Positions 1 to 27,018 of a stretch of DNA of 64,000 nucleotides are shown piece after piece. The notes beneath the pieces were generated by a model. The model ran no database searches. It had not been told where the DNA came from and was given only the letters and a program-made list of their open reading frames with translations. Each line of letters begins with the position of its first letter. The stretch's first letter is position 1. This stretch comes from Candidatus Omnitrophota bacterium (GTDB lineage: Bacteria; Omnitrophota; Omnitrophia; Omnitrophales; Aquincolibacteriaceae), in the NCBI GenBank assembly GCA_043821445.1, contig JBDRCT010000017.1, forward strand, positions 5,679-69,678, given 5' to 3'. The position numbers and the translations under genes are program-made.

Positions 1-1511
<1,511 letters not shown>

Positions 1512-1562
1512 GTGGGGAATTGTATCATAACCAGACCGGAGACTACAGACTAGAGACCGGGC

Positions 1563-1841
1563 TTACGCGGACTTTCCGTAGATTTCTCTGCGATGACCGA
1601 TGCGAAGAATAGTGATCGTTGTTGTGTGGACTTTGTAGATAACACGCCAGTCGCCAACACCCAGCTTCCAGTATCCCTTCAAGGTATGCCGAAGCGGTGC
1701 TCCGAACTCCTGCGGAAAAAGAGCAAGCTTCTGTTCGATGGCGCGCCGGATTCTTCGCTGATCAGCGGCTGTGATGCGAGGAATATCCTTTTGGGGAACA
1801 TCAGGATGGTAAAGGATTTCGAAATGCGGCTCCATAGACAT
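1563..1841 (-). CDS. RelE/ParE-family type II toxin
   Basis: 92 aa. ...LKGYWKLGVGDWRVIYKV...ITILRIGHRREIY resembles the RelE/StbE core. It lies 10 nt downstream of a small RHH gene. The last 4 codons (GKSA-stop) are identical at nucleotide level to the giant gene's 3-prime end. Confidence 0.75.
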   Translation of the reverse strand: MSMEPHFEILYHPDVPQKDIPRITAADQRRIRRAIEQKLALFPQEFGAPLRHTLKGYWKLGVGDWRVIYKVHTTTITILRIGHRREIYGKSA

Positions 1842-1850
1842 GCAGAGTCC

Positions 1851-2081
1851 TTATGAGCCCCAAACATCCCGGTGACGGACCGGTTTCGTTTTGGAAAGTG
1901 ATTTTTCCCGTTCGGCTGCCGCCTTCGCCCAAAAAGCGTCTTCGTGGATCGTGAGGGCTTCCCGCAAGAGATCGCGGGCAACCAGGGACATGGAAAGGCC
2001 TTCTCTTTTCGACATTTTATAGAGCGTCTCGTAGATCGACGGCTCCAGGACAACATTCAACCGCGGCTGTTTTGTAGCCAT
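1851..2081 (-). CDS. ribbon-helix-helix (CopG/ParD-like) antitoxin
   Basis: 76 aa. The N-terminal RLNVVLEPSIYETLYKMSKREGLSMSLVARDLLREAL is a typical RHH motif. It sits immediately upstream of the RelE-like gene in the same orientation, with a GGAGG Shine-Dalgarno 7 nt upstream. Confidence 0.65.
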   Translation of the reverse strand: MATKQPRLNVVLEPSIYETLYKMSKREGLSMSLVARDLLREALTIHEDAFWAKAAAEREKSLSKTKPVRHRDVWGS

Positions 2082-2099
2082 ATCATCGCCTCCGGGAGG

Positions 2100-2128
2100 A
2101 GTGTATCACAAGTGATGAACCAAGTCAA
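2100..2128 (-). promoter_or_regulatory. candidate sigma70-type promoter of the antitoxin-toxin operon, with a palindromic operator in the spacer
   Basis: Minus strand reads TTGACT (plus 2123-2128), a 17-nt spacer, then TACACT (plus 2100-2105). The palindrome ATCAC-TT-GTGAT (plus 2105-2116) sits inside the spacer, and GGAGG precedes the ATG. Confidence 0.5.
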
Positions 2129-2183
2129 GGGAAGAGACGAGAGACGCAGGCAGTAGTCTGCGGTCTATGGTCTGTAATCTGGC

Positions 2184-5100
2184 TTACGCGGACTTCCCGA
2201 TCGCGGCGGCGGCTTGGATCGCGGCGCCCAGGAGCTCAGCGACAGTGAATTGGAAGGCACTGCTCACCTTTGTGCGAGACCCGGTCACGGTCACAACCCC
2301 GTCGAACTGATTGAGCAACGCTGACGCCGCATGCAATTCGCTGGGGTCAACACCCTCCGTCACCTGGGCTTGGATCACATTCCGGTTCGCCTTTGCCGTA
2401 GCAACATCAATATGTAACCGATCCAATTCTTCTGTAACCGCCTGCGACAATAGGCTGTTGACCTGGCCAATGCGGAGGTCCATCTTCCCGACCCCTTTCA
2501 GAGCCTCGTTCGCAGCCGCTTCATCCGCCTGACCTGCGATGACCACAAACCTGCTGCCGGCCTGACTCTGCGCTACCCGTTGCGCGATGTAAGCCCCGTC
2601 AAACCCGTCGGCCGGATTGAATTCAATAATATGGAGTCCATTCCCCTTCAGGGAAAGAATCACACTTACATTAAGCGACTGCATGATCGATTCGATCATG
2701 CGCCCTTCGATCCGAGTGGCAAGCGGATTAACAATCTCAGGAAGAACCTGCATCGTAAACCGGGCTTCCTGCACCCCTGCAGCCGCCGCAATCGCTCTTT
2801 GGATCTCCTGTTCGCGTGCCGCCGCGCTTTGTTCCTGTTCCGCCGGCTGGACCTCGGGCGTTCTCAATTCCGAACGCGCCGGAATGGATTCCACGTTAAC
2901 AACCACTTTCTTGTCGGCAGACTGCTGAATACCCGCCTCCAACACCGTTCTGCCTTCGGACGCCACCACAAACCGGCCGTCTTCCATCCGGAAATCCGCC
3001 GCTTTCAACTGATCGAACGAGACCATCTTCAACAGCTCATTGATCTTTGTGGCATATTCCTTCCGGTCGACGCTTAAACTGATAAAATCGGTCTGCGTTA
3101 ATTGTTGAAGCTTGGAGAGCGCGTAAACGAGTTTGGTAACACTTTCAGGATTCCCCTGGCGCACCATCTCACGGAATACATACACGATCCGCTGGAACGT
3201 TACAGTCTCCATGAAAGTCTTGAAGTCGGGATTGGAGGCCAGTTCATTACGGATCTCCGCGGGAACTGCCTCTTCGGCAATGGCCTGGCTCAGATCAAGG
3301 ATCACGCCGTCGCGCGGTTCGTAAAAACCGGCCGCACGAACAGACGCCCAGTTCGACTGCAACCGCTCAAGGTTCGCCGCACTTTGCAAATAACGGGCGT
3401 TTGCGAGTTGGGCCGATGTAAGTTTACCTTTGCCCACGGCCGCGACATCAAGGATATAAATGAAAGACATCAGTTTCAGAAAGACCGGAATATCATTCTC
3501 CGGAAGCCCTTCAACCACCTTTCGCGGAACCGTCTCTCCCCACGGCAAAGCACCATATTCCAGTTCGCGCGAAGTCAATGCTGTCACGATCCTGACGGTT
3601 CGCGCGTCCATGCCGAGTTTCTCCAGGATCGCTTTGACCAGCTCGCTACCCACCACCGGATGCAACGGCCCCGTCGTGATCAGGCGCCCGTAATCGTGGA
3701 ACGCCAACGCCAACGCAAGCAACTTCTTCTCCTGCTCCGACAGACTGGCATTATAACTATCAACGAACGCCTTGAGGCCGGCCTCATCTAATGTCACGCT
3801 CGCTAGATTCCTGCTCCGGAAATAAGATACATCGTTAGCCTGCAATGCTTTCACACCGTTGAAGATCACTTGCTGGTGGTCACGGAAGGTCACGGTAGAT
3901 CCGTCCGGCATTTGCCATGCGGCCCCGCGGATCGGAACGTCCTGCTGCCAACCGAAAAGGCCGAGCGGGCTTAAGGCGTCGATAATGTCTTGAGGATTAT
4001 TCATCGCGGAGATCTTTTCCGCACCTTCGAGGTCCCGGGCCGGATCGATCCTTTCTAAATTGGCCATAAAACGGGTTTTCAACTGTTCCTGGAGCGCGGG
4101 CATCTCGCCCGAGGTCACGTGGATCTTTCCGACCAGTTCCCGGCTCTTATTGTCTACCACGGCACGTGCTTCGGACCGAACCTTGCTTAAAGCTTTTTCC
4201 GCGTCCGCCCGCGCAATAAGATTCAACGCTACCGGCCCGCGTTGCATCGAAGCGGTCCACCGGCCGATCATTGTGTTGATATCTTTGATACGATCTTCAT
4301 GAAGTATCGGACCACCCGGTAACAGGGAGAAATTGCTGACACTCAGAAGCTTAGCGCTCGGAGCCGGCACATCCTGCGCAGCTTGTGAAACAGGGCCAAA
4401 CACCATTTCGACAGTCCCTCCCACAAGACCGTCCAACTTCACATCATACTGGATCGTCCCCTCCTTCGAGACATCGAGAACACGAGTTTCGCTTCTCGCA
4501 AGCGCCAGGCTGACAACAACATCCGGAACAAGGGTTCCAACAATTCCAAATTCTCTAGAGGGTACGTAGACCGGTGCCCGGACTTCCGCCAGCGACGGAG
4601 GATTCACCTGGGCCTCCTCCGCGGGAACTTTTGGAACCTCGAGTCGCATTGGCATAGGCGCCGCCGGAGTTGCTTTGAGTTCCTCCAGTTGTTTCGCTTT
4701 TGCATCCGATAATTTGATATTTTCAGAATGGCGGATCCACATCCACAAAACTCCTACAACGCTCGCCAAAACAAGCAACAGCGCCACCGGCCCAACAAGG
4801 AACAGCCCACCCCACATCAACCCAGCAAATGATAAAACGATCGCAGTACCTATTAATCCGGCGATCTGCCAAGGGGTTTTCTTGATCCGGGCATCCAGCG
4901 CCGCGACTTCTCCCTCTAATTTTGTTACATCCTCCGACGGCGCAATAGCTGCCACGAGTGGCGCTACCGGAACCGCAGGCGACGCAGCGACAGTTTCCGG
5001 CGCCACGGCTAACGGCGTTTGCGCGGCAACTTGTGAAGCTAGAATCTCAGGCTGGCTTTGAGCCGTCTTTGGAGTAGCAACGATCTGTTTACTCCCGGGT

Positions 5101-8100
5101 AATACTTCCTGAGCGAGCTCCTGTTGGCGACTTAGATCGGGCAGCACCTCTTCCAGCGTCCGAACTTCAGACCGGCCAGGAGGAGTTCTGAGATTCCCAT
5201 ATTGATCAACGTCCGCCACATTTTTCGGTTCTTCCATCTTCTTTGGAAGTCCAAAAAAGCGTAAAACACGTCCCAATTTTTTCACACGCGACGAAGTTTT
5301 TTCATTTTTGGAAATGTAATCAGAAACGTTATACATTAGCTTGTAAAGCTGCGTTGATGGTGTCAAATCAGCTTTAATAGCCGCCTCTTCAACACCAATG
5401 TAGCCGCGGATAAATTCCAGCCAATGTCTAGCAGGTGCCATCAAAAGGAAAGGCGCTGCCAATAAAAACCCTGTCAATGCAGGGATCACAAAAACCATCG
5501 GTAACGCAAACCAGAAATAGACAGCCGATGCCGCGCTCATCTTGAGAAAAACACCGGCCGCGATCATAAGCCCGACCCCGACATTGAACCCCACGTGAAA
5601 CAGGACATTCGAAATTCTCATACTCCAGCCGGCAAACCATCCCAAGGTGCCTTTCTGCTCTTTTTTGGTTTCGCTATCTGAAAACATATCGGCCTTCATG
5701 CTTCTGTAGACATGCACCCAGAACAGACCGAGCCTCTTGATGCCGCCCCCCTTAAAACCGAGTCCTTCTTCAAGGTCGGGATAGCCGGCCGGCAAATTTT
5801 TGAACTGGTCCAGCCAGACATGCCAACCCGCCATGGACCAGGACCAAAGGAACGTGATACCGAAGACGAACGTGAACAAATTACTGTGGAACAGAACGCC
5901 GGAAGCGATCGCGAGGAGCGCCGCGACAAAAGCCGGACTGTAGAACATGTAAGTGCGCAGCAGGCTCTTTGCGCCATCAATCTGTCCGGTCCCGAACGAA
6001 GTGGCCCAGGGCAGCTGCTGGTCACGCATCACAATAAAGATCATCCGGGTGAATTTAACGGTATAGCGCAGCACCAGATAGCTGATCACGAACGCCGTAA
6101 AAATAGGATGTGCCGCTACCAAAGTCCCCAAGATGCCCGTGATGCCCCAGGGTGATAAAACACTCCATGCCGTCAGTTTTGCCGCAAGCACCGCGGCACC
6201 GGACGTAAAATGCCAAAACACGAAATTCCCGTTCATAACATACCAAAAGAGAACGGGAATACCAAAGATCATCGCGGGTTTCGAAACCCATTGGATCAGA
6301 TTCCCGATCACGGTGCCGATCGTCAAATGCCAGCTCCTGCTAACATTCTGGGAACCCTGCATAAAGAGCTTCCAGGGGTTCTCCCAGAAATTGCGCTTGA
6401 TATGGAGAAAAGTATCCGCCAGTCCGGTCGTGGTCCCTTTATAGAGCAGCATGACCTTCCCCCAGGTCTGGCCCTGAATGCTCCCAAAAAGCACGGGGAA
6501 AACGATGACGACGAAAAGCACGCCGATGAAGAGCAACCCCACCACCGGGAACGGGAGCACCACGAAAGCCGGAAGGAATTTTGCCGTCAGGGTGATACTC
6601 GCCCATACTAATGCCACGACCATGGAAGTAAATATCACGCCGTTCATCTTTTTAGAGATCCTGGTCCATTCCAGAATCAAGGCAATCATGAAAGAACCCA
6701 ATAACATGGCCGCAAGTACGACCGTGAACGGGAGCCAAGCCGGCCAAAGAACGCCGACAACCCCCAGCAGCGCCACCAAAAATCCCGGCATTAATAGACG
6801 CTGTATAATATTAAGAGCTTTTTTCCCGGAGAGTTGTTCCGCGTCCGCCGCTGAGCGGCGCATGAACCCGGCGATCAGGAGCGCGACCACGATCCCGATG
6901 ACCACCCCCACCCAGAGCTGGGGCATAACACACGACGTCATCAGGAATTCGGTCGACCGCGGCACCATGATCGTATACATGTTCGCCATCCCAGATAGCG
7001 AAGGGTCAAAGAAAAACCGTTTGATGACCCAGAAACCGAAGATGATCGGGTTGATGTATCCGAGCACCGCCACAAAGCTCATCCAGCGGGCCGCCAAGGG
7101 AACGCCCGGCTGGAAAATATCATACACACGCATCAGGTCGCCCTGGGCCCAGCGTACGAAGCTCCTGCCTTCCATTTCGAAGAACGTAGGTGTGGAAGGT
7201 TCGAGGATCGCGGCATTGTCCACGAACACGGCTCCCGTCGTGTCCCCTTCCTTGTAGTCGTGGCTCAGTTCCTTGATCGTCACGACGCCGAAAGACCCGG
7301 CGCTCTTGCCCGAGACCCATAACCCCGCAAACAACCCCAGCATTTGTCCGATGGAGAATTGAACCATCAACGGAGCGCTTAACAGGAAAGAAAGAGCCCC
7401 CGGAACGAAAGGAAGAGCACTTGGGATGAGAGGAAGAACAAATGACAGAAGAGAAAACACGATGGGCCCGGCCGCGATACCTGCCAGTGTGAACACAAGC
7501 ACCGTCCACCACCGGGAGGGCATGTTGCGCGCATCTCCCGTATGGTAATGGCTGTGAAGATTGACCAGCGCCTTGCCGGTAAAATTCCCCCGCCCCCGGA
7601 TCAACTGCAGGGCGTGCGCGTAAAAAACGCCGTGATTGCTCGCGAAATCGTTAAGCATCGTAAAAAATGTCCGGGCCGTCCTTTCCGTGACGACTTTCGT
7701 CCTCGGGATGATAATGCCCGCCCAATTATGTGTACTGCGGGCGACCTCCACCAACTTCCGGACGACATTGATGAAGGCCTTTTCGTTCGGGTATTCCGGA
7801 TTGTCGGGATTGTCCCCCAGACGGTTCTTATTATCCATCGTGAAGATATGCTGGGTACCCTCGGGATTTGTCGTGAACAATTGAACGCGGCGGCCTTGTG
7901 AATCCTCTACTGGAGCAAGTCGACCATTTTCATCTCTTTCCGGCAGACGATTCCTCAGTAAATGGTCCGGATCAAACCCGCAAATTGAATCCTTGGTATA
8001 AAGATCATCGGCAAAATAGCGGGTTCCCACTTTATTCGGTTTCAAATTCGCCTTGTGCTGTTTGTAATTCATGATCGCGCGGCCCGCAAAATATCCCATC

Positions 8101-11100
8101 AGCCACATCACCGCCCCCACAATCCAGGGACTGCTCAAAATAGGCCCGAGCACTGCAAGCGCCGGAGCTAACCAGATAACGCCCGCCACAGTAAGGACAA
8201 GCGCCACTCCATTCACAACCGCTGCCCCCACCGGATCATTGACGCGTCCCGAAAAACGCAGTAACGGAATAGGCAGTTCAGTCGCCGCGGGCGGACCGTC
8301 CTGGCCCATCAAATAATCCTCGGTAGACAGGATGTTCCCCTGTTTCTTTTCGAAATGAAGTTCCGTCAGAGGAAGATAGTAAATGAGCGCCTTGCCGAGT
8401 TGGGCTCGAGTAAGAGGTATGAGATCTCCTTTGCGTGCACCTTTCGTAGGTTCATCTTTCGTATAAACATAACCCGGGATCGTATAATCTCCATTCCCAT
8501 TGGGAACGTAAACGCTTCCATCGCCGAACCGGCTCGCACCTATTTGAATGACCTGTTCCCGGGCATATTCCAAAGCCGCTTTGATGAATTCAAATTGTAA
8601 GATCGCGTTGGCATCATTTTTCCCCGCTTTTTTAATGACCTTCGAATATTCTTTTTCGGCAAGGATGAGCAAAGTCGTCCTGCCGTACGGATCGAGATTG
8701 TACGCCAGCGAATCAATCACGTTTTTCAGAAAAAAGAAATCTTGCCAGCCGCCTTCATTATTTTTTTTGTCTATGTCGACGCCGAATTCGATCTTAAATT
8801 GTTCCTTGATGTATTCGATGCTCGCATGGGCTTTAAACATCTCTAAAAGCCATAATCTTATTGTGTGATCGATCACAGGTTTATCAGCGGCATCCTTCAT
8901 AGGCTTACCAGCGGCATCTTTCATAGACTCCTGGGGCGGCGGGAACGAATCGAAATTGAAATAGGCGATGCTCGTTTTGTGGCCCGGAGGCAGCGCCTGT
9001 CGTTTTTGGCCCTCTTCCGTTTTCAGAGAAACCTCGCGCTGAACTTCTTCTCCATCCTTTTCCTCAACAACGGTGAAAGAAAGATCATGCCGGTCCGCGG
9101 GTTTTAGATAAACCCTCGTTCCATCTTCTTTTTCAATATACGGTGGAAGATTGCCCTTGGAATCTGAAGACTTGGGCGGCTGCTCAGCCTCAGTCTTAGC
9201 CTCGGGCTTAGCGGTGGCCTTCAGTACCAGAAGATCGAGTTCGGGACGCTCAATAGCATCGCGCGATGCTGCACTGGGTCTCATTTTCACGAGTTTGGGG
9301 AAAATCTTAGCTAACACCCCTCGCACACGGCTTTGCTCCCCCATAGTCATGCTCTTGGGGAAGATCCGTCCCGCCAGCCAGGCCGTAAGGATGTGCGAAA
9401 GCATGAACGCCATCCACCCGCTTTCGAAAAGGTCTATCACGTTCCAGAAAATATTCGAATTCGTCAGTTCCAATACCTGCCAACTCATCAGGAGGAACAA
9501 CCCCACGAAAGCGCCGTGCACTAGCAGCATGACAGCTCCGCGCAAAGTCAGGTACGGTGGGGCATATTCCTTGCCCAGTGGCTCACGGCGGACCTCGCGA
9601 TTCCGTGCGGCCAACGCAGGATCCATCGTTTCTTCTTCTGTGCTAATGAGCCTGGAAAACAGCTGCCTCATTTCAGACCGGGGCAACATGCCCGTACGCT
9701 CATACTGAAACTCCTCTCTGAGCACAGGATTACCAGCGTGATCCAGTACAGGTACCTTGATCTTGCCCGCCTTGCGCAATTGCCGGACGGCGAATGCCGC
9801 GATGAGAACAAAGATCGTGGTAATGACGGAAAAGATCGGCAGGATGACCGACCAGGCGCTCCAGAATTCGCCCATTTGGCGGGTCCTGGACCCGCGCTCT
9901 GTGAGGAAGTCGCTCAGCTTGGGCCGCGCTTTCCCGCCCTTGGTTTCCTCCTGGATCCGGGTGTTGCTCGAAAGCACATAATTGTCCGCAAAATAGGACT
10001 CATACTGTTTGGCAAGTTCTACACCCTGGGCCCCTGCCAGTTGCCCCAGGACTTCCAGCTGCTCCTGCGAATAAAAAACAGGTTTCCGGTCCGCGATGAC
10101 CCCGGCATGGACCAGCGGCATGTCGCGCCCCGCCGCGATGAAACGCAGGAGGCTATCATCCTGGACCCGGAGGTCCGCAGGAATATCCTGCTGCTCTCCC
10201 CGGAACCAGGCCAGATCGGTCAGCACGACGCGAACCTGAGCGGGTGACAACAGGCCGCGACCAAGCCCTTGGATCCACGCGTCCTGTTGTTCCTTCGTGA
10301 GGCCGAGGGATAACTTTTCGGAAAGGCCCTGCACGAACTGTTCCGGCGCCCCGGCGTCTTCAGGTTGGAGAGGCTCCTGTTTTTCCGCCGCAAGCTGCAG
10401 GTATTTTCTAAGCATGTTCTCTTCGAAGTTCTTGAAGGTCGCAACCGTTTTGTCCTGATGCAGCGAAAGAATGCTGTTTAACAGTCTATTAGGATCCATG
10501 GCCAACCGGTCCCCGACGACGATCTCCTGCATGAGCGTCTTGAGGTCGTTGACCATAAGATTGAGTTGATTTTCATCTTTGATGTCTCGTAATTTTTGGA
10601 GCGAGCCGGCATTCAATGCTCCGAACAAATGATTGTTATCGACATAATATTTCACCAGTTCGGGGATCCTGTTCGCCGGAACGGTCTTTTTCGCCTGGAG
10701 GCGCGCCTCAAACCCTTGTTCGAAATCTGCCGGGGTCGCAAGCACGACGGGCCGCGTCATCAGCCTCAGAATGAGAAAACGCCTAAACTGTGACGCGTCT
10801 TCCAACATCTTCCGATCATAGGTCAGGTCCTTTCCGTTCCGCGCAAAGAACTCATCCCGGAAGGACCCTTCGAGATCTTGCCCGAGACGAGCGATCTCCT
10901 GGAGCCGCTGTAGGTCCTTCACGTTCTTTCCGAGGCCCATCAGGAAGTGGAAGAAATCTTTGTCTGCCAGTTGGGGATCAACCGGCCACCGGGAAAGAAA
11001 CGTCGTGCTAAGCAGAAGAGCCGTCCGTGCTTTCTCCCCTTCAGGCAAGGCCTCCCATAACGCTCCCCGTTTATCGGCCATCTGTTGGAGGTCAGATCCC

Positions 11101-14100
11101 GGCAAAGCGTATTTACCGCGAAAAGCGTCCTGTCCTTCCGCGGAGGCGGCAACATTCAAGTATGTTTTGGAAGGATCCGAAGGCTCCACGAAAATGAATT
11201 TTGTGACCATTTTCTGGACTGCCAGCGACGGACCGTTGTACCCAGGGGCGACAATGCTATGGTGACGCATCTTCAAACTGCGGCGGAATTCGATCACGTA
11301 TCCTTGCATTTCGTTAAATGCCAGCGGCCGGCCGAGATTTTGTTGTTCCAACGTTATTTGTTTTTCTCCGGGTTTACGGCTAAGTTTCTCTTCCGGAATC
11401 ATGCTCTTGTACTGTCCCGGGATAAGATCCGGACGCCCGAGGGCAAGGGCCAGCATCAGCTGGCACTGTTCAAAATATTCCTGAATATCAGAGACCTTTT
11501 CGATCTCTTTGGTATTAAGGACAACGCTCATGATATCGGCCTTGGTAATGGAATATCCCATGGGCTCGAGAATACCGTGATAGGCCTCCCAAGCGGCTTT
11601 CGCCCGGGGGATGATGACCGTCTCGACTTTTTTCATATCCACGTATTGTTCTTCACTCTCCGGATATTTGTTTTCTTCGACCATTTTCGACAGCCACTCC
11701 GGAATCATTTTTGCCGCCCACCCCGGAGCCTGACGGGACAGCCAGTAATTCGGCGTTGCGGCGTTCCTTTGCGCCTCCGAATCCATGACCCTCCCAAGCC
11801 AAAAGCTCGCGGTCCCGACCAGCATCCTCCCGGCGGAAACGCGTTGCAAAAGCGGAAGCGTCGACTGCGCTTGCAATACCCCGGCCAGATCGGGGTCCGC
11901 AATCATGAGGGATTCCTGCAGGCCTATGATCTTGCGCTCCATATTCAGACTGCCTGCGTCCTGAACGACCGGATAGCGGTCGAATTTCCCGACGATCAGG
12001 AAAAAGTTATCGAAGAACGTCCTTAATTTTGCCAGGGAAGCCGGATCATCTTTAGTAATGTCAAGACCCCGCGCCTTCAACATATCGGGCATGCCCGCAA
12101 CGATCCCTTCCACGAAAGCGCCCGGGAAATTCTCGCTGGCTTCCGTATCGATGATCGCATCGATCTGGGCCTTCCAGGCCGGGTTCCTGTTGATCACTTC
12201 CGCATATTTACTCCTCTGCAGGAACAGATACAGGTCTTTTTCGATCTGTTCGATCGTCCTCGGTGTTTCTTCAGGATAAGCGACCGTCACGTTCCCATAA
12301 TGGCTCTTGAGCCATGTCGAAAACCCTTCGAAATCCTGGCCATGCTGGTCCACCAACAATTTCAAGACCTTCCCCCTCTGCGCATAGATCGCTTCAAAAT
12401 CGGCCGGCAAGTCTTTAGCGGCACCGGTGAGACGCCCCATGAGTTTGGTCAATTTGGCCTTGCCCTCGGGGGTCTTGTCTTTTGCAAGTTCGGGCAGCAA
12501 GGTCCTGAGGTCTTGATTCTCACCGATCACTTTAAGTGCGCGGAGATAATCCGTAAAAGCCGGAGAGTCGATCAATTTCACGATATTTTCATAGCGCTGG
12601 GCCAGGCGGTCGTACGGGATATGATCTCGCTCGGCGATGTACGCTTCGTTCATGATGTGGCCGAAGGCAACACCCTGCTGTTCTTCGGGTTCACGAATGC
12701 TGTATTGATAGCTGCTGCCGTAAAGGATCTTGAAGATCTCCTCCGCCCCCTTGAACGCCTTCGGGTGCTTGGCGAACTTATCCATGAGATCCAGACGGCG
12801 TTCGTATTCTTTGATCCGCGCATCGATACGCGTGCCGATCGGGGCGTTAACGCCGCCCATCGTTTCCCATTTCTCATAGTCCCACATCGTATCAAGCTGG
12901 AACTGCGAGAGAAGCTTCCCTTGCCGGAAATCTTCCCGGTACTGCGCCGCCTCTTTGTGCCAGTCCGTGACCCCGAGAATGAATTGGGCGTGCGCCATGA
13001 CAATGCCCATGTTCGCGCTGACCTTTCCTCCTTGATCCAACCGGAAATCCCTGCCATAAAGTTCCTGAAGCTTCGGATAAAGCTTGCCTGCCACTTCGAT
13101 AATCTGTTTTAACTCATCGATCGTCAAATGGTACCGTGTCCCGTATTCATACCAGGCGGACACCTGCCCGCTGTCGCGCGGGTCCTTCATATTAAGTGCC
13201 CGCGAAAAAAGTCTGCTGGCGTCGAGGGCTTTCAGGATCTCAGGCGCTTTTCGATAATAGTCATCGATACCGCTACGAATATCGCCCAGCGGACCGGCGC
13301 GGATCCCTTGAGGCAGCGCGTTCCCTAATTCGTCCAACGCATCCGAAATGCTCTTACCATGAACTTCAGCGTATTGCTCGATCCCCTGGATCGTCCGGAA
13401 AACAACTTCACCCATGAGCGCCCCGGTGCGAAGACCCGCTTCTTCCTTTTGAACCTCCCGACGGTCCGCGTAGGTCTGATTGGCTTCCGCGCTCGCTCTC
13501 AGAAAACGCAACATAGCGGCCGACGGATCGGCGGCAGAAGGTTCTCCGTTGAGACCCACGATGGGCACGCGCTTATTTTCCAGGATATAGTTGGTGAGAA
13601 GAATGACCGTATTAAGACGCTTTGCCCGCTCGCCTTTATCCGGAGAATACAGTTTTCCCATAAAACTCATGTATTGCCAGGCCGTGATATCGGCCAGGTC
13701 CTTGATATCGCCATAAAGACCCAGATCCCTTCCGAAATTCGCGCGGTAAAGGTCGAACACTGCTTTACGAACGTTATTAAATTCCTGGAAGGTATCTTCC
13801 AGGGTCGAAAATTTATAATAAGGTTGTGCGCTGACCTGGCGGTCCGTGTAGGTGGCCCAATCCAGAAACACCTGACCAACGAACCTCCGCTTCAGGGCGG
13901 CGTCATCCTCCTGGGAACCCAGCCGCTTCTGCTGCTCGGCCCAGGCCTTAAAATCCACACGTCTATCCTTGATATCCACGAGGCGGCTTAACAGGCCGTC
14001 ACGTGTCAAGAATGCGATCTCGTCACTGGTAAACTGGGGCGGCGCAATGACGGGGACGGCCTGACCGTTCGGGGAGGCCTTATTTCGTTCGACCTGGTCT

Positions 14101-17100
14101 GCCATATTTTTGACTAACTTTGTCAAAAAGATAAAATCGACTTTCAACCGTTCGGAGAACATACTGTTAAAACGGTCGGAAAATTGGTTCTGAACGAGCT
14201 CAGGAACATTGGCGGATCTTGCGTTGATATCTTCCACCTTCATCCCTTTTAAAATGGACGTCGCGTAAAAAACGTAGACCCCCAGGATCCGGAGGTCTGT
14301 GTTTCTGTCCAGAAGCGAGTTCGCCTCTTCCTGATTCATTGCCGTCAACGTCCTATTCGAAAGCAACCCTTCGATCAATTGTGCGTAATTCAGCCCCAAC
14401 TTTTCGTTTCGAGGTAATTGCGCCATGAATTTCTTGAAATCCGGATCATTCAGCTTTTCCTTAAGCGAAGGCTTCCCGTCGGTCCCGGACCGGGACAATG
14501 TTTTCAGGATCTCGAACATCGCGAGCCTTTCATTGGGGGTCAACCGCATCGCATCAAAAAGCCGGACGAAGACATCTTCCACCAGGACTGGCTCGCTCAA
14601 TCCCCCGACAACTTTGCCGTCACGGCCACGCTCGATAACCGCGGTGTCGGCACCAAACATATTTCTCCACAGTTCGCTCACGGAAGGTACGTATGGCTCG
14701 TTGGTGTTTTTATCACGATAATCCGTTCGCGGCTCAATAACCGGCGGTTTTTTCTCCTCGCCAAGTTTTTTCTGAAGGACCTTGAGATCCACTACCGCTT
14801 CGGCCGGCTCCGGAGGAACAGGAAGTTGCGCAACCTCGGCCGCTTCCCTGTCGATCCGCGCTTCCGCCTGCTGAAGTTGTTCCAGGGCTACCTGTTGGCG
14901 CGTCTGGTACGGCAACGGCGCTCTGGCCGTGTGCTGGACCCTCTGTGCTTCCTCGTGAAGGCCCATCAGCTCCGTGGTATGGGAAAGATTGATCAAAGAT
15001 TTTTGAAATTCAAAATTGATGCCCGTAAGACGCAGGGAATCGTTCTCGCGGTAGTCAAAAGCGGCCAGAACATCGTTCACGGTCTTGACTGTGCGGCCAG
15101 GCTCCCCGATCGCACGGTAACCGGCCGTGGCGTCATTCGCAAAGCTTAATGACCCCGCGAATTCATCCGCGATCTGGACCAGCCGGACGCGATTCAGGAC
15201 AAAAGCGGCGTATTCTTCGAGAGCCTGCATTTGGACCGCTCTCCTGAGAGGGTCTTGCTGCGCCACCGCCAGTTCTTTCTTTGCTTTTTCAATGTTCACG
15301 AGTTCCGTTTTCGCACGGTCGATCAAGTGGCGCGTATATTCGGCGCCGACCGAGGGATGGTAACCGGCGAAGATCCCGACTTGGGAAGTCCAGCTGCGGT
15401 TCTTCTCCGCTTGCTTGACTTCGGCCGTGGCTACATCGTTGTTCCTCAAGATCGATTGGAACCTGGGGTCTTCCGCGGCACTCTTCAACATCTTCGCGAC
15501 AACTTCTTCCCCGATAGGTTCCCCGTTGTAGACCCGTTGGAGAAGGTTCGTCGGCGGCACTTGGATATCGATTTCGGCGGGGATCCCGGCGATGAATTTC
15601 AACATGTTCACGTAAATCTCAAAGTCCCGCTCGGCCGTCTTGGCCATGGTCACCGTACGTATGACCGCATCACTGAGTGCTTGTTGGTCTTCGAGAGCGG
15701 TGCCGGTTTGCGCGGCAGCTGCCATTTCCTTCCGGGCCTGCATTTCCTGTTCGCGGATGTCCCAGATGGCCTTGGACCTTAACACGTCTTGCCAGGCCAG
15801 TTCCACTAAGCGCTGTCGGATGTCCCTGCGAAACTCTTTTTCAAGACCCAATTGTTTCGCCCGAGCCATATAAATCTCAAGCTGCGTTTTGCTGAATGCA
15901 AGTTCTCTAAAGTCAAAGGTCACCCGACCGCCCGCTTGAAAATCATCTCCTCTGCCGAATCCGAGAGGAATCCTGAAAACTTCCGTGCTGATAGCCAAAG
16001 GCCGCAAATAACGACCATATTCCTGTATATCCCGTAATTCTTGGGCAAGTTTTTCGTTGGAGTCCGCAACACGGTCGCTGTTGCTTTTGACGAAATCCCG
16101 GAGATTCTCAGGCGTCGTTAGATCAATGACACGGCCTTGGGCCCCGATCTTCAACGTTCCCTTGGTCGCACGATTGACCTGGAGCAGCCGCAAGTTCAGT
16201 TGGTGGATCAGTTCATTGTCATCCTGGTCGTCACGGTTCACCTGACGGATAGCGGTATAAAGCTCCCTGTCGCCGGCATCCGCTAAACCGGCCTGTTCCT
16301 TCTCTTCATATTCACTGATGCTCTCGTCAAGGTCCCCGATCAGGCGCCGGGTTTCCGTCTTCTGGTCCTTCGTGTTGGCGACCTGCCGGTCAAGGTTCTG
16401 GGAAACAAGCCCTTGACGTATGATAAAGTCCTGGTAATCATCGAACATGGTCCGCAGATTCGCCTCGGCCACCGCAATGTCAAGCGTTTTATCTTTCGCC
16501 AGGTGCCCGGAATAAGTCCGCAGGCTCCCGGAGCCGCCGATCCCGATATGCGCGGGGTCTTCGATGATGGCATCAAGATGCTCGCTGATCGGGACATAGT
16601 TCGTCGTCACGGGGACGGCGGAGATGAACGGGACCATGAGGTGCAATTGTTTGTAGCTCTTGTGGTCGGCCGTGTTCAGCATCGCCCACTGGATGCGGAC
16701 CCGTTGCTCGGCGACTTTGCGATCGATATCTTTGTCGAACCCGGAAAGAAGGCCCAATTCTTCTTCACTGAGCTCTCCTTCCATGAAAGACTGTTTGCTT
16801 TTGGGCGTGTAAGTGAACCTGCCCGGGTCTTTACGATCCTCAACGTCACGGCCCATGATGCGGAGCATTTTCTCTTCTGCGCGGTTATGCTCCGACTCCA
16901 GGGAAGTCTTCGCTTCTTCAAAGGAAGAAAGGCGCTGCCTTCCCCATATGATCTGCCGGTCGATATCCTTGATCTTCTCCGGGGTCACACCCTCCTTCTC
17001 CCTCGATGCTTCCAATAGTGCCAACAATGTTTGCTCGTGCATGATCGCGCCCTCAAAGACATCGATACGGTAATGGATCTGATCCAAGAACTGGCGTTGG

Positions 17101-20100
17101 ACAATGATATTCTTGACATAATCGCGCTTATGGGCCTGCTGCAACAATTCCGATTCCTTTAACGCTTGTTCGAAGAAATCCCACTGTGCGGACATGTCCC
17201 CGAAATCCCAAGTGCCAGTCAGGCCTCCGCCCACTCCGGCCTTGAAAACGCCAAGCGCCTCCACGCCGCCGTCCACAAAACGCCGGATGCGGAGGTCCCG
17301 CAGCTTCTTGTCCTTCAATTCCGGATGGCTATCTTTTAGTGCCTGGAGGTCCGCTTTGACTTTCGGAAGCGTAAAATGCAGGGCCTTCAGGTCTTTGGCC
17401 GCCTTCTCTTTTTGCTCCGGGGTGGATTGGTCGGAGTTCAGGACCTCTTCCGCTTTGCGGATACGGGCTTCAATATCACCGATCTGACCGATCCAATTGC
17501 TGAAGTTGATCTCAATACGTACGGCCTCATAGGCCTCAAGTTTGGCCTTATTCACTTTTTCGATCTCTGCCTTGATCACTTCCGGTAAGCGTGGCGCCTT
17601 ACGGAAAAGATCACCGAACTTTTGGAAAAGATCGCGTTCCTTAGGACTGGTCGCCCGTTCATATTCCGAGAAAAGCTGGGCCTCGTATTTCTGAAGATCT
17701 TTGATCTCAACACCATTAACCGTTCCTTTCAGTCTGATTCCCTCCCCAGCCAGCATCTGGATTTCACGTTCTTTGACTTCCCGGGCACGGAACTCCTCAA
17801 GGAGGAGGTTCACATTTTTCCCGCCGGCAAGGTTGTCCGCTAACTCCGTGGCATCAACCGGCCGGTCACTTTGCCGGTATTTCGCTTCAAGCTGGGCGAA
17901 GTACTCCGCGTCGAAAAGTTTTCGGCTTTCCCCTTTTTTGACCTTTTCGGCATCACGCTCGAAATCCTCTTCGAATTTCGCGAGCTTTGCGCTCACCCCG
18001 GACGTAAAACGGTTGATCTCGATTGTTAGTTGTTCCACTTGATGGGCCGTGTCTGCGGCCTGTCTTTTCGCGAGGTCATACTGCTCGACCGCAGCCTTAA
18101 ATCGCATGGACCAGCCCGACTCGTTGCGATAGCGCTGCCGTTCTTCCCTCAAAAGGTTCTCTGCCCCATCAAGCCGGGATTGGACGATCCCGTTAATCCG
18201 GACAGCCGTCTCGAGACGGCCACGCAATGCCTCCTCATCCGCCTTGATCTGCTGGGCGTCCTGATAATATTGCAACGCAGCCCCCTCACGGGAAAGCATG
18301 TGGACCATCGCGGGTGTCTTGGGATCGCGAACGGATGAAAGCGGCGACATGAAGTCGAACGCTTTGGGAGGATTGAAAAAGATACGTGTTCTAAAGAGGA
18401 TCCCCATTTTCCCGCGGGCCTCAGCCAAAGAGGTGTTAAGTACATCCAGCGCATATTTCCCTTGCGCTGCCGCAAGGTCCAGGCTCTGTCCTCGCGCGGC
18501 CGGGGCCGCGGTAGCCTCAAAAAATTTGGCCGCCTCTTTCGGATCTTCCAGTTCTCTCGGGAGGATGATCTTTTTGTCCGTGACCCCGACCAGAGCGCCG
18601 ATCGAACGCAAGATCCCTTCTAATTCAGCACGACGGTCCGCCAGGTCACGCTCCAATTGGCGGCGTAATTTACCGATCGCCATGGCGGCATCCGTGTCCT
18701 GTCCTTCCCGGGTACGTGTTTTCGCAATTTCTTCGTCGTTGCGCACATCTTCAAGCGAAAGCCGCAACTTCTCTGCAAGGATTCTCGCACGGGCATAATT
18801 ATTCCCATGCGTCCTAAGTTCGCGGACAACATCGGCCATTTCCCGGTCCATTTGCAATAGTCCTTCCCGCTCACGGTACGTGGCGATCGCCTGGCGTTCA
18901 TTTTTCGTGGGATCCGACAAATAGAAACTGACCTCGGTGCCGACACCGTATCCTTTAAAAATAAAATCGGTGCCCGCGCGGGCGACAATACTCAAGGTGA
19001 ATTTCCGGTCATTCCTCTGGAACTTCGCCATGGCGTCCAAGATCGCCTTCGAAGGACCTGCCGTGGCCATCCGCGTCGCGATCGCCATTTCCAGCAGCTT
19101 GTCAACACTGACCGGCTGCCCTTCATTAAAAAGAGGCAAAGCGATGGTCACGTTTTCCGTGACCGGAGTATGTTCCTTGGCCTCGGTAACAGCGCTAAAC
19201 CGTTGAAGAATGGCTTCTCGGACAACATTCCGCAGCATCTCGATCTCGGGAGGTGTCAATGCGTTAATGCCGCCGGTCTGGTCCATCAACTCATCAAAAC
19301 CCGCCTGCAGGTCTTCGGCCTTCAACTTTGAAACATCGCCACGGCCGTCGGCGCCCCTCAGGGAGGCCACGTACTGGTCGGCAAGGCTTTTAATGAAACC
19401 GGGCCGACCAAGCAGGGACCTGGCGATCTCGCGGCCGGCATCCGAGGTATTCGCGTTAAAAGTGATCCTGTCGGTGATCTCACTCGTCAGGTAGTTTGCA
19501 AACCTCTGCGCATACCCATTGCGACTTTCCTCAAGGCGGAGTTCTGCTTCCTCCCGTTTTGATACAAGTTCGTCGTGAATCCGTCGCGCCTCTTCGGCCG
19601 CGGCTCCCATCGGTCCGGCAACGGCAGCCGTTTCTACCGTAGCTGCTCTTGTAACGTTCGGAGCGGGCCTCGCGGTAACTGTGGCGGCTTCTTCACCGAT
19701 CGCTGCGACACCTGTCATTGCGACTAAAGATAATACCGCCGACGTATTGGGCCCGAAAATATCGTCGACCGGCTTCGTGAGAGCCCGGAGACTGCGGCCC
19801 TTTAACTGTTCGGTAAATTTTGCGGGAACGGCCGCGCCCGTCATGACAGCGGCGAGCTCGGGGTTGTTCATTACTTCGGTTTGAAATTTTTCGACGACTT
19901 TGGGGTATTTTGCTTCATTAGCCTTAAGCCAGGCACCGATGTTGTAAGGCGTCGGCGCTTTTCCTTCCTGAGCCAACGCTGCCTTGCCTTCCTCGACAGC
20001 TTGCTGTAAATCGGTGGATAATTTCTGAAGTTCCGCGGGCGCGGCCTGCCGCTCGGTCACAAGCTCTGTGCGCTGCGCTTCAGCGGTGGGGACTTCTCTT

Positions 20101-26009: not shown

Positions 26010-26039
26010 CGGATTGCCGTCCTCTCTTGAAAGTCGATC

Positions 26040-26500
26040 AGAATTACTCTGTAATTCCCAGCCTTCTTAACCACTATATTAAACTTATTTTAAGACCTTA
26101 ATAACCTCAATAGAAATATACACAACGAAGTCTCCACAGTCAAGGAAACCTAAAAAATTTTTAATGATGTAACCCATTATTAATCAACATGTTATGTAAC
26201 TTTAGAATAAGATTTAACCTTTTTGTTGCTCCCATATAATTTTTTATAGCATTACTAAACAACAAAAAATGCCACTTTTTTTCAGAAATAATATCTGGAG
26301 GAATAAACATATTTAATATATTCATAAAAAGTTCTTTGAAATAAAACTCATTAAAACGGGGGTCCTTTGAATTCGATCGGAGTTAAAACGCTATGGGATG
26401 AACTCTTGCAAGTATGGAGACAGGCAGCACTGGTTTCCCATCTAAAAACTATGAGTATCGGTGCTGACTACGATTTTGAAAAAGAAATGATAGTTTGGAC
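26040..26500. promoter_or_regulatory. AT-rich (about 70% AT) upstream/promoter region of the giant gene
   Basis: Composition shifts sharply from the about 57-60% GC surroundings. It lies directly 5-prime of the giant gene start codon at 26009. Confidence 0.5.
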
Positions 26501-26562: not shown

Positions 26563-26650
26563 TGGACCTGCCCTTGCCTTTCATTTATTTCTAAATGGTC
26601 GGCAGGGCTGTCCCAATACCACTCAATCGAAGCAAAGCGGAGATTGGGGC
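26563..26650 (-). repeat. 88-bp unit, copy 1: tRNA 3-prime octamer CAGGTCCA, an AT-rich -10-like box, then the 41-nt palindromic element
   Basis: Perfectly identical to 26855-26942. It contains tttcatttatttctaaatgg (26579-26598) and gtcccaatacc...gagattggggc (26610-26650). Confidence 0.85.
26610..26650 (+). repeat. 41-nt CCAAT/ATTGG palindromic element (copy 1)
   Basis: gtcccaat...attggggc outer inverted repeat with an inner caatc/gattg pair. Confidence 0.7.
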
Positions 26651-26758
26651 GGCCCTGACTACCGCAAACTCAAAAGAAAATCAAAGCCAGGGCCGTCTCA
26701 AAAATCGCACATGTTATTCAGCGACTTTGTGGACGGGTCTCGCCGCGATTTTTGGCGG

Positions 26759-26942: not shown

Positions 26943-27018
26943 TGTCCTCGTCAGCCATTTGGAAAAGAAATTTCAGACGAGGGCTGGCCCATTTGACCTT
27001 AAATTCCATGGAGAGAAA

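What the first reader, a model, noticed from the sequence alone, without database searches (positions are those of the whole stretch)
1541..2199. RHH-antitoxin/RelE-toxin cassette inserted at the 3-prime end of the giant gene, bounded by a 19-nt direct repeat of that gene's own terminus and by inverted heptamer arrays
Seen: ggcttacgcggactt(t/c)ccg occurs at 1560-1578 and 2181-2199, with 18/19 nt identical. In both places it encodes GKSA-stop, so the RelE-like toxin and the 7941-aa protein end with the same four codons, stop codon and next 3 nt. RelE/ParE proteins normally end near the ...HRREIY motif, so the GKSA tail looks acquired from the duplicated target. Immediately outside each repeat copy lie tandem heptamers in opposite orientations: agactac-agactag-agacc at 1541-1558, and tagtctg-cggtcta-tggtctg-taatct at 2152-2180. 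They form long-range inverted repeats flanking the 620-bp cassette. Inside the cassette there is a textbook promoter (TTGACT-17-TACACT) with a palindromic operator (ATCACttGTGAT) in the spacer. The pattern resembles att-site hybrid junctions or a non-autonomous cassette inserted by site-specific recombination. TA cassettes with this kind of signature are not something I can match to a described element class.
Basis: seen in the sequence. Interest (0 to 1): 0.75.

Follow-up and report, generated by a model that had tools for sequence, protein, structure and literature searches.

The report
Toxin-antitoxin pair beside a giant gene
An ordinary-looking RelE toxin/antitoxin gene pair was recombined into the short gap after a 7,941-codon gene and picked up that gene's last two codons; it is not a new self-mobile element, but the same pair sits next to giant genes in about a dozen related Omnitrophota bacteria, which had not been described.

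Summary

- **Insertion is real.** A sister genome (nadE 91% identical) and an outgroup have giant gene, a 90-120 nt spacer, then nadE, with no cassette.
- **The tail is smaller than claimed.** The closest RelE homologues natively end ...EIYGK, so only Ser-Ala, the stop codon and 3 nt come from the giant gene.
- **The repeat is not a conserved att site.** It is 13/19 and 12/19 in the two sister loci and absent where the same cassette follows another giant gene.
- **The window copy was re-homogenised.** Its stop-codon flanks are swapped relative to its sisters.
- **The heptamer arrays are not cassette-specific.** They are arms of a terminator-like hairpin family also found at unrelated intergenic sites.
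- **No recombinase was found** in the DNA examined.

What is new is the context. This RHH-RelE subfamily sits at the 3' end of a giant gene in about 12 Omnitrophota lineages and is under strong purifying selection. It occurs before or inside the hairpin, and once inverted. The same spacers also collect other toxin-antitoxin modules.

The parts
1..1511 (-). nadE (glutamine-dependent NAD+ synthase), 5' 503 codons; the conserved gene downstream of the cassette
   Evidence: Pfam NAD_synthase 4.4e-67 and CN_hydrolase 5.5e-24. A 100% identical protein, P0122, is on a 97-kb Omnitrophota MAG contig.
1519..1530 (-). TTATGATACAAT, an extended -10-like element 7 nt before the nadE ATG. It marks the right-hand limit of the DNA that differs between filled and empty sites.
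   Evidence: Present in the same place in the cassette-free loci L101 and L104. It is one of only two matches to TTRTGATACAMT in the window; the other is the cassette's own -10.
1533..1559 (-). GTCT-type heptamer array in gene sense (CGGTCTC TAGTCTG TAGTCTC CGGTCT), directly after the RelE stop. It is the 3' arm of a split array hairpin.
   Evidence: It has no local partner: the local fold gives z = +0.6. It pairs with 2148-2180 (duplex z = -4.3).
1560..1578 (-). Repeat copy at the RelE end: C GGA AAG TCC GCG TAA GCC (Y-G-K-S-A-stop plus 3 nt)
   Evidence: Together with the following CGGTCTC it matches the giant-gene end of sister locus L001 at 20/23 positions.
1563..1841 (-). RelE/ParE-family toxin. 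The conserved start MEP... is at 1835; there is an extra in-frame ATG at 1841.
   Evidence: Pfam PF05016 at 41.7 bits (cut-off 23). NCBIfam RelE_StbE at 31.3 bits (cut-off 27.9). PDB relatives 2KHE and 3G5O_B. 336 homologues.
1851..2081 (-). 76-aa ribbon-helix-helix-like antitoxin, ending 9 nt before the toxin ORF
   Evidence: Weak RHH_1 match (17.1 bits, below the 20.5 cut-off) and weak RelB-like match. It is 81-95% identical across 11 lineages, with dN/dS about 0.1.
2100..2128 (-). Cassette promoter TTGACT-17-TACACT with the palindrome ATCACTTGTGAT (2105-2116) overlapping the spacer and the extended -10
   Evidence: The block GGTTCATCAC(TT/AA)(G/A)TGATACAC is conserved in 13 loci. L025 keeps the palindrome arms with a changed centre.
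2131..2151 (-). Two GTCT-type units (GCGTCTC TCGTCTC) between the AGAC array and the -35 element
   Evidence: The counterpart in sister loci is a single unit, CGGTCTCC.
2152..2180 (-). AGAC-type heptamer array in gene sense (AGATTAC AGACCAT AGACCGC AGACTAC), directly after the giant-gene stop. It is the 5' arm of the split hairpin.
   Evidence: It matches the array that follows the RelE stop in sister locus L001 (score z = 9.4).
2181..2199 (-). Repeat copy at the giant-gene end: C GGG AAG TCC GCG TAA GCC (I-G-K-S-A-stop plus 3 nt)
   Evidence: AAGTCCGCGTAAG is native to this gene family, because it is present in the empty-site allele L101.
2184..26009 (-). 7941-aa giant ORF, an orphan
   Evidence: No Pfam hit at E<=0.001 over the whole protein. 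Its C-terminal 4000 aa have one hit among 5.8 billion proteins. DNA homology to the sister locus starts only in its last ~50 nt.

Best explanation
The locus is a functional, autoregulated type II toxin-antitoxin operon: an RHH-type antitoxin and a RelE-type mRNA-interferase toxin. It belongs to a subfamily that is a long-standing 3' neighbour of giant genes in one Omnitrophota clade.

In most lineages the pair follows one giant gene ('giant A', upstream of a CitMHS transporter gene). In the small clade that contains this window, it was recombined into the spacer between a second giant gene ('giant B') and nadE. This was illegitimate or short-homology recombination, not site-specific integration.

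That event, or an early follow-up, put the giant gene's last two codons and stop onto the toxin, whose own last codons GGG AAG resemble the giant gene's GCG AAG. This created a short direct repeat.

In the window's lineage the region was later reshuffled. The sequences after the two stop codons were exchanged relative to the sister genomes, giving a circular permutation. That is consistent with excision through one pair of short repeats and re-entry through the other, or with an equivalent unequal exchange followed by gene conversion. The reshuffle homogenised the repeat to 18/19 and left the cassette inside the loop of a heptamer-array hairpin.

The heptamer arrays are the two arms of a terminator-like hairpin type that this clade uses at many gene ends. 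They are not cassette-specific recombination sites, although their repetitive inverted structure probably promotes the rearrangements seen, including one inversion.

Shown: gene identities, conservation, empty sites, repeat decay in the sisters, swapped flanks, and arrays elsewhere in these genomes. Inferred: the recombination pathway and the order of events. Also inferred is the biological role, most plausibly stabilisation of the giant-gene locus or defence.
For: Gene identity
- Toxin family hits exceed curated cut-offs. PDB relatives are RelE-type.
- The promoter and palindrome are conserved in 13 loci.
- dN/dS is 0.05-0.14 for both genes.

Linkage to giant genes
- Every distinct locus with RelE >=75% identical and enough flanking DNA has the pair at the 3' end of a very long ORF. 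These are WIN, L001, L002, L005, L006, L014, L019, L022, L095 and L100.
- In L100 a BrnT pair lies in between.
- In L021 the upstream ORF is cut after 117 codons by the contig edge, but it ends ...EEAA like the other giant genes.
- 69 loci with distant RelE homologues have ordinary upstream genes.

Insertion
- L101-103 and L104 have giant gene, spacer and nadE without a cassette.
- MAG GCA_043803685.1 has both giant A-RHH-RelE-CitMHS (L014) and giant B-AbiE-nadE (L105).
- nadE identities place L101 inside the window's clade.

Tail
- Relatives end GK. Only WIN and L001 (GKSA) and L002 (GKAA) are longer.

Repeat decay and swap
- The repeat is 18/19 in WIN, 13/19 in L001, 12/19 in L002 and absent elsewhere.
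- The WIN post-giant flank matches the L001 post-RelE flank (z = 9.4). The L001 and L002 post-giant flanks match the WIN post-RelE flank (z = 7.9 and 6.1).
- dS between WIN and L001 is 0.28-0.80, so a repeat as old as the insertion should have decayed.

Arrays
- They are present at other intergenic sites in L001 and L105, with none in 405 kb of background loci.
- The window holds two further array hairpins, with fold z = -4.4 and -5.7.
- The cassette is inverted between the arrays in L019.

No recombinase
- None found.

No close copies elsewhere
- None in plasmids, phages or viral contigs.
Against: - The pathway is reconstructed from only four genomes of the clade, and recombination there is evidently frequent. 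The giant genes are unalignable although nadE is ~90% identical. Polarity (gain versus loss, which arrangement came first) is therefore not secure.
- The simple excision and re-entry model predicts TAGTTC after the giant-gene stop, but the window has TAAGCC. An extra conversion step must be assumed.
- L101 shares its giant-gene terminus with L002, so loss through allele replacement cannot be excluded.
- Whole genomes were not searchable, so a recombinase acting in trans, or a second copy of the cassette, cannot be ruled out.
- The cassette landed at giant-gene ends twice, lies inside a hairpin, and occurs in both orientations. All three are what a targeted element would also produce.
- Toxin activity is untested. 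The window's toxin has Gly where all 22 closest homologues have Arg.
Confidence: 0.6

Rival explanations
1. One reading: the RHH-RelE unit is a non-autonomous mobile cassette moved by site-specific recombination. The 19-mer would be an att-like core and the inverted heptamer arrays the recognition arms.
For: - Empty sites exist.
- The cassette occurs after two different giant genes.
- It lies between complementary arrays in WIN and L019, and in opposite orientation in L019.
- The WIN and L001 arrangements are circular permutations of each other.
- The empty sites L101 and L104 carry no AGAC/GTCT arrays.
Against: - The repeat is 13/19 and 12/19 in the sister loci and absent in all giant-A loci.
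- Junction positions differ between L001 and L002.
- The arrays occur at unrelated intergenic sites, and other array families substitute for them at the same positions.
- No recombinase was found in the flanks examined.
- Synonymous sites are saturated between lineages, and flanking synteny is conserved. This points to vertical inheritance with rare moves.
- There are no close copies in plasmids, phages or viral contigs.
Confidence: 0.15
2. The shared ending is kept by selection on function rather than being a scar. Both proteins, or both mRNAs, would need the same C-terminal Ser/Ala-Ala tail and stop context. Examples would be a C-terminal degradation or sorting signal, or a 3'-end RNA motif.
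For: - All giant genes examined end in -AA or -SA: KSA, QSA, EKAA, ETAA, EEAA, AAAA, DSAA, DHAA, QSA, QTAA, IAA.
- The L002 toxin tail is Ala-Ala, encoded by different codons (GCT GCA) from the giant gene's TCC GCG. The tail is thus kept at peptide level without nucleotide identity.
Against: - About nine lineages of the same toxin subfamily have no tail.
- Nucleotide identity in the window extends 3 nt past the stop and covers synonymous positions, which selection on a peptide would not require.
- No Rfam family matches the region.
Confidence: 0.1
3. The cassette is ancestral at the giant-B/nadE junction, and the 'empty' genomes lost it. The repeat would then be a product of later gene conversion only.
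For: - L101 shares its giant-gene C-terminus (FEAAKAVAKSA) with cassette-bearing L002.
- The four clade members are equidistant in nadE, so one loss is as parsimonious as one gain.
Against: - The L101 spacer (hairpin GGGGACAGGCA...TGCCTGTCCCC, then a T-run, then TTATGATACAAT) is the same as in outgroup L104. It contains no AGAC/GTCT units.
- A deletion between the repeats would have left those arrays behind.
- The outgroup genome with both giant loci carries RHH-RelE only at giant A.
Confidence: 0.1

Closest known systems
RelBE-type type II toxin-antitoxin operons (RelE/StbE toxins with RHH or RelB-like antitoxins; solved relatives 2KHE and M. tuberculosis RelE2, 3G5O chain B)
   Same: - Antitoxin-first two-gene operon with a 9-nt gap.
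- Toxin hits PF05016 and TIGR02385 above their cut-offs.
- Conserved C-terminal ...GHRREIY block aligned to the solved toxins.
- Palindromic operator overlapping the promoter.
   Different: - Unusually conserved for a toxin-antitoxin pair: 77-95% identity where a neighbouring transporter is 62-81%.
- Fixed position after giant genes.
- A two-residue tail copied from the neighbouring gene.
- The antitoxin only weakly matches RHH or RelB models.
Toxin-antitoxin cassettes of sedentary chromosomal integrons (e.g. Vibrio superintegron; PMC11023631)
   Same: Promoter-bearing toxin-antitoxin units embedded in a recombination-prone region. They are found in either orientation, flanked by hairpin-forming repeats, and thought to protect large dispensable DNA from deletion.
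   Different: - There is no attC architecture. The boundary reads GTAAGCC, not GTTRRRY, and the arms are tandem heptamers.
- No IntI was found in the DNA examined.
- It is a single cassette, not an array.
REP/BIME-type repetitive extragenic palindromes
   Same: The heptamer-array hairpins are lineage-specific, repeated at many gene 3' ends, and come in exchangeable sequence families.
   Different: - Each arm is itself a tandem array of 3-5 units of 7-8 nt.
- Loops can hold inserts ranging from about 60 nt up to the 600-nt cassette.
- No RAYT-type transposase was looked for genome-wide.
Chromosomal toxin-antitoxin loci that stabilise adjacent large regions (from my own knowledge: Szekeres et al. 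2007, Mol Microbiol; not retrieved here)
   Same: A chromosomal toxin-antitoxin pair beside a very large, fast-changing region that may be costly to keep.
   Different: Stabilisation is not shown here. Deleting the giant gene alone would not remove the pair.

Membership tests
Type II toxin-antitoxin, RelE/ParE toxin superfamily | Toxin matches the family profile above the curated threshold | tested here: met
   PF05016 at 41.7 bits against a cut-off of 23. TIGR02385 RelE_StbE at 31.3 bits against 27.9.
Type II toxin-antitoxin, RelE/ParE toxin superfamily | Small antitoxin gene immediately upstream in the same operon, with a DNA-binding fold | tested here: inconclusive
   A 76-aa ORF ends 9 nt before the toxin ORF and always co-occurs with it. 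However, RHH_1 scores 17.1 bits (cut-off 20.5) and the RelB-like model 24.8 bits (cut-off 50).
Type II toxin-antitoxin, RelE/ParE toxin superfamily | Autoregulatory operator in the promoter | tested here: met
   The palindrome ATCACTTGTGAT lies within TTGACT-17-TACACT and is conserved in 13 loci. L025 has a changed centre but intact arms. Binding itself cannot be tested here.
Type II toxin-antitoxin, RelE/ParE toxin superfamily | Intact active-site-type residues in the toxin | tested here: inconclusive
   The C-terminal HRREIY block aligns with solved RelE-type toxins. However, the window's protein has Gly at position 61, where 22 of 22 close homologues have Arg.
Integron gene cassette | attC site (R''-L''/L'-R' with GTTRRRY core) at the cassette boundary | tested here: not met
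   The boundary reads CCGCGTAAGCC. The flanking inverted repeats are tandem AGACNNN/NNNGTCT heptamers.
Integron gene cassette | IntI integrase and attI nearby | tested here: not met
   The neighbours are nadE and the giant gene. The ten genes in the 14 kb beyond the giant gene are housekeeping-type with no recombinase. The rest of the genome was not available.
Integrative element with att sites | The same direct repeat bounds the element wherever it occurs | tested here: not met
   18/19 in the window, 13/19 in L001, 12/19 in L002, and none in L005, L006, L014, L021, L022 or L095. The 14-mer core is absent from all 105 fetched loci.
IS/MITE-type transposable element | Terminal inverted repeats at constant ends plus a short target-site duplication; a transposase in cis or in trans | tested here: not met
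   The position of the arrays relative to the cassette differs between lineages: before it, around it, or after it. Insertion boundaries also differ. A 19-nt duplication is outside the usual range. No transposase is adjacent.
REP-like extragenic palindromes (for the heptamer arrays only) | Many copies at intergenic sites across the genome, lineage-specific | tested here: met
   AGAC/GTCT arrays occur at the RsfS-ArgRS spacer in L001 and L105 and after nadE in L105, with none in 405 kb of unrelated loci. Two further array hairpins lie in the window.
REP-like extragenic palindromes (for the heptamer arrays only) | Associated RAYT/TnpA-REP transposase | not tested
   Whole genomes could not be searched.

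The most novel reading that the evidence does not exclude
The RHH-RelE pair together with its heptamer-array hairpin would be an undescribed kind of non-autonomous cassette that targets the terminator hairpins or conserved termini of giant genes. It would move, permute and invert through the arrays and the terminus repeat, using a host or trans-acting enzyme. It would be retained because it protects or monitors the giant gene. Giant-gene 3' ends would then be dedicated landing pads for toxin-antitoxin modules in Omnitrophota.
Probability: 0.12. Interest if true: 0.8.

Novelty: new variant of a known kind. Interest (0 to 1): 0.5.

Why it matters
The gene pair itself is ordinary. Three things around it are not described in the two giant-gene papers checked; one of them mentions a single RHH antitoxin only in passing.

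1. One toxin-antitoxin subfamily is held under strong purifying selection at the 3' end of giant genes across about a dozen Omnitrophota lineages. Meanwhile the giant genes themselves change beyond recognition.
2. The spacers after giant genes also collect other toxin-antitoxin modules (BrnT, AbiE).
3. The clade uses hairpins whose arms are tandem heptamers, and whose loops accept inserts up to a whole operon.

If the linkage is functional, it offers a handle on how bacteria keep or police 24-kb-plus genes. If it is not, the locus is still a clear worked example of a short 'att-like' repeat arising from illegitimate recombination and then being refreshed by gene conversion.

Tried and rejected
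- **Chance.** Rejected by shuffles for both the repeat and the arrays.
- **Exact look-ups.** The window's own toxin and antitoxin sequences are not on record.
- **The 14-mer core AAGTCCGCGTAAGC.** It is absent from all 105 fetched loci.
- **Known RNA family over 1-3000.** None found.
- **Plasmid, phage or viral origin.** There is no DNA match in plasmids or phages. Viral contigs hold only relatives at <=48% identity.
- **Integron or attC reading.** Rejected on sequence and on the absence of an integrase.
- **TTATGATACAAT before nadE as a duplicate made by the insertion.** Rejected, because it is present in the empty sites. Its resemblance to the cassette's -10 (TTGTGATACACT) remains unexplained.
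- **Arrays imported with the cassette.** Weakened by finding the same arrays at other intergenic sites.
- **Simple tandem-duplication-plus-deletion routes from the sister arrangement to the window's.** Worked through by hand; they did not reproduce the observed order. Only excision through the GTCT units followed by re-entry through the terminus repeat did, and that route still needs one extra conversion step.


Full report
**Observation**

All genes in the first 26 kb of the window run on the minus strand. In order they are a 7941-aa ORF (2184-26009), a 76-aa ORF (1851-2081), a 92-aa ORF (1563-1841) and nadE (1-1511).

The 19-mer GGCTTACGCGGACTT(T/C)CCG is at 1560-1578 and 2181-2199, 18/19 identical. 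It is unique to these two places in 64 kb even with three mismatches allowed (0.04 expected). In both places it encodes G-K-S-A-stop.

The heptamer arrays are real and complementary. Their duplex energy is -29.9 kcal/mol against -15.4 for shuffles. The promoter TTGACT-17-TACACT, preceded by TG, and the palindrome ATCACTTGTGAT are present.

One geometric correction is needed. Each array lies immediately 3' of a stop codon. The array at 2152-2180 is therefore inside the interval between the repeats, and the array at 1533-1559 is outside it.

**What the genes are**

- **Toxin.** It passes the curated thresholds of Pfam ParE_toxin and NCBIfam RelE_StbE. Its nearest solved relatives are RelE-type toxins, 2KHE and M. 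tuberculosis RelE2.
- **Antitoxin.** It matches RHH and RelB-like models only weakly. It is always present upstream of the toxin and is 81-95% identical among lineages.
- **Giant ORF.** It has no Pfam hit at all. Its C-terminal 4000 aa have a single weak homologue among 5.8 billion proteins.

**The tail**

Among the 120 best toxin homologues, two residues normally follow ...EIY. The 20 or so closest relatives end ...EIYGK.

Only three proteins are longer in the same way: the window's (GKSA), P0001 (GKSA) and P0002 (GKAA). GK is therefore native, and the add-on is two codons plus the stop context.

**Orthologous loci**

P0001 (L001) and P0002 (L002-004, L015) lie in the same arrangement, giant gene-RHH-RelE-nadE. 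nadE is 89-91% identical among these genomes.

The repeat is weaker there:
- L001: C GGG CAG TCC GCG TAA GCT against C GGG AAG TCC GCA TAG TTC, 13/19.
- L002: 12/19.

DNA homology between the window and L001 starts in the last ~50 nt of the giant gene and continues through the cassette into nadE. The giant genes themselves are essentially unalignable.

**A wider pattern**

Toxins 75-81% identical to the window's (P0003, P0004, P0005, P0019 and metagenome loci) also sit directly after very long ORFs: 5071 aa, and at least 3421, 3216 and 3183 aa, the last three cut by locus edges. There the next gene is a CitMHS transporter, not nadE.

These 'giant A' genes share only a C-terminal ~320-aa domain, at 25-45% identity.

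In 69 loci carrying distant RelE homologues (<=56% identity), the upstream genes are of ordinary size.

Both cassette genes show dN/dS of 0.05-0.14, with synonymous sites saturated between distant lineages. They are more conserved than the neighbouring transporter. This is an old, selected and mostly vertically inherited module, not a recently spreading one.

**Empty sites**

Searching with nadE and fetching its closest relatives gave three informative loci.

- **L101-103** (nadE 91% identical). A giant-gene 3' end finishing ...FEAAKAVAKSA-stop is followed by a 121-nt spacer and nadE, with no cassette.
- **L104** (nadE 81% identical). The layout is the same, with an 86-nt spacer.
- **L105.** It comes from the same MAG as L014. 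Giant B is followed by an AbiEi/AbiEii pair and a Phd-like ORF before nadE, while the RHH-RelE pair of that genome sits after giant A.

Three conclusions follow.
1. There are two giant loci.
2. The RHH-RelE pair entered the giant-B/nadE spacer only in the lineage of the window, L001 and L002.
3. AAGTCCGCGTAAG is the native end of giant B.

The inserted DNA replaces the whole spacer in L001 and the window. In L002 it replaces only the part distal to the spacer's own hairpin. The junctions are therefore not fixed. On the right, all alleles rejoin exactly at TTATGATACAAT before nadE.

**History of the repeat**

The repeat is degenerate in the two sisters, and synonymous divergence between the window and L001 is 0.28-0.80. 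The 18/19 identity in the window must therefore be recent.

The flanks show why:
- The block that follows the giant-gene stop in L001 and L002 (TAAGCT CGGTCTCC) follows the RelE stop in the window.
- The AGAC array that follows the RelE stop in L001 and L002 follows the giant-gene stop in the window (z = 9.4, 7.9 and 6.1 for the cross-comparisons).

The two arrangements are circular permutations of each other. One route reproduces the window's order: excision by recombination between GTCT units, then re-entry by recombination between the two terminus copies. That route predicts TAGTTC rather than TAAGCC after the giant-gene stop, so a short conversion tract must be added. This pathway is inference.

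Analogous cross-matches occur in giant-A loci. The hairpin CCGTTCTTYGAACGG follows the giant-gene stop in L006 and L014 but the RelE stop in L005. L095 carries several terminus-like relics. Exchange between the two post-stop positions is thus recurrent.

**The heptamer arrays**

- In L001, L002 and L014, the AGAC and GTCT arrays lie together after RelE and pair with each other, with loops of up to about 65 nt.
- In the window and in L019 they lie on either side of the cassette.
- In L019 the cassette is inverted relative to the giant gene and CitMHS. The giant-gene stop and the RelE stop are convergent, 32 nt apart (duplex z = -5.8).

The same AGAC/GTCT arrays also occur at sites unrelated to the cassette: the RsfS-ArgRS spacer of L001 and L105, and after nadE in L105. 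The orthologous spacer in L002 and L101 holds a hairpin built from a different unit (GTACGG type). No arrays are found in 405 kb of unrelated loci.

The window itself has two more hairpins with tandem 7-8-mer arms at gene 3' ends, at 35934-35998 and 41873-41941, with fold z = -4.4 and -5.7.

The arrays are thus a clade-wide, terminator-like hairpin type.

**How it most likely works**

By analogy with RelBE-type systems, the antitoxin represses its own promoter through the palindrome, and the toxin cleaves translated mRNA when the antitoxin is lost. This rests on established knowledge of the family and was not tested here.

Three features suggest a role tied to the giant-gene locus, either stabilisation against deletion or defence:
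- the fixed position after giant genes;
- stronger conservation than the neighbouring genes;
- other toxin-antitoxin modules in the same spacers (BrnT in L100, AbiE in L105, PIN and AbiEii near P0014).

This role is inference.

The repeat and the split hairpin are best read as scars of short-homology recombination in a recombination-prone spacer. No recombinase lies next to the cassette or within 14 kb beyond the giant gene. No close copy exists in plasmids, phages or viral contigs.

**Comparison and novelty**

As a gene pair, this is a member of the RelE/StbE type II toxin-antitoxin family. It resembles integron toxin-antitoxin cassettes in being a promoter-bearing unit flanked by hairpin repeats and found in both orientations. 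It fails the attC and IntI tests.

The arrays behave like REP elements but have tandem-heptamer arms.

Neither giant-gene paper examined reports the linkage. One lists a single RHH antitoxin among flanking genes. Two further literature searches found nothing.

I rate it a new variant of a known kind, with interest 0.5. The conserved linkage of a toxin-antitoxin pair to giant genes, and the insert-accepting array hairpins, are worth following up.

Noticed in passing
window 27019-27252: tRNA-Ala(CGC) lies at 27180-27252 (-), about 1.2 kb upstream of the giant-gene start. Its 3'-terminal 17-18 nt are repeated exactly at 27019-27036, an att-like duplication that encloses only ~144 nt.
   Followed up: partly
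window 26563-26656, 26855-26948, 27249-27286: There are two 94-nt direct repeats, 98% identical. Their first 38 nt also match the leader just upstream of the tRNA-Ala gene, and each ends in the tRNA's last bases. They look like relics of repeated events at the tRNA locus on the 5' side of the giant gene. An AT-rich stretch (about 26030-26480) precedes the giant-gene ATG.
   Followed up: partly
window 35934-35998 and 41873-41941: Two intergenic hairpins at gene 3' ends have arms made of tandem arrays of 7-mers (CGCGCAA / GCGTTG, followed by TTTT) or 8-mers (AGTGTCAA / TTGATAC). Fold z-scores are -4.4 and -5.7. This appears to be a general hairpin style in this lineage.
   Followed up: partly
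window 2184-26009: The giant ORF has no Pfam hit over 7941 aa, and its C-terminal 4000 aa have one weak homologue in 5.8 billion proteins. Giant genes at the same position in genomes with ~90% identical nadE are unalignable except for the last ~50 nt. In the pair L104/L105, by contrast, the giant genes are 84% identical.
   Followed up: partly
giant-gene 3' ends in window 2184-2200, L001, L002, L005, L006, L014, L019, L021, L022, L095, L100, L101, L104: All giant ORFs examined end in -AA or -SA (for example EKAA, ETAA, DSAA, AAAA, KSA, QSA), often as GCN GCG TAA. Giant A and giant B share a terminal motif like A-V-x-K-x-A although the proteins are otherwise unrelated. This might be a C-terminal signal, or a shared site for recombination.
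   Followed up: no
window about 1659-1661 (toxin residue 61, counting from MSMEP): The window's toxin has Gly in WKLGVGDWR, where all 22 closest homologues have Arg. It also carries four other lineage-specific changes. The toxin may be attenuated.
   Followed up: no
window 1519-1530 and 2100-2111: The nadE upstream element TTATGATACAAT and the cassette's -10 region TTGTGATACACT are the only two matches to TTRTGATACAMT in 64 kb. Each is native to its own context, because the nadE copy is present in the empty sites. The resemblance is unexplained. It includes the right half of the antitoxin palindrome.
   Followed up: partly
L019 9700-10310: The cassette is inverted relative to the giant gene and CitMHS. 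The RelE stop and the giant-gene stop are convergent, separated by a 32-nt heptamer array, and the complementary array lies on the far side of the cassette.
   Followed up: yes
L100 4265-4817; L105 8022-9950; contig of P0014: Other toxin-antitoxin or defence modules occupy the same spacers after giant genes. L100 has a BrnT pair ahead of RHH-RelE. L105 has AbiEi/AbiEii plus a Phd-like ORF between giant B and nadE. The P0014 contig has a transposase, Phd/PIN and AbiEii beside the pair.
   Followed up: partly
L001 8606-8672, L105 12798-12871, L002 11160-11235, L101 3680-3735: The RsfS-ArgRS spacer holds an AGAC/GTCT array hairpin in two genomes and a GTACGG-type array hairpin in two others. Array families are thus exchanged at a fixed terminator position.
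   Followed up: partly
L095 9470-9759: The 289-nt spacer after this giant gene contains three terminus-like relics (cagtcagcgTAG, cagtcggcgTAG, ctgccggcgTAA), each followed by a hairpin. The sequence after the last relic (CTGTACGGAGT...) is repeated after the RelE stop.
   Followed up: no
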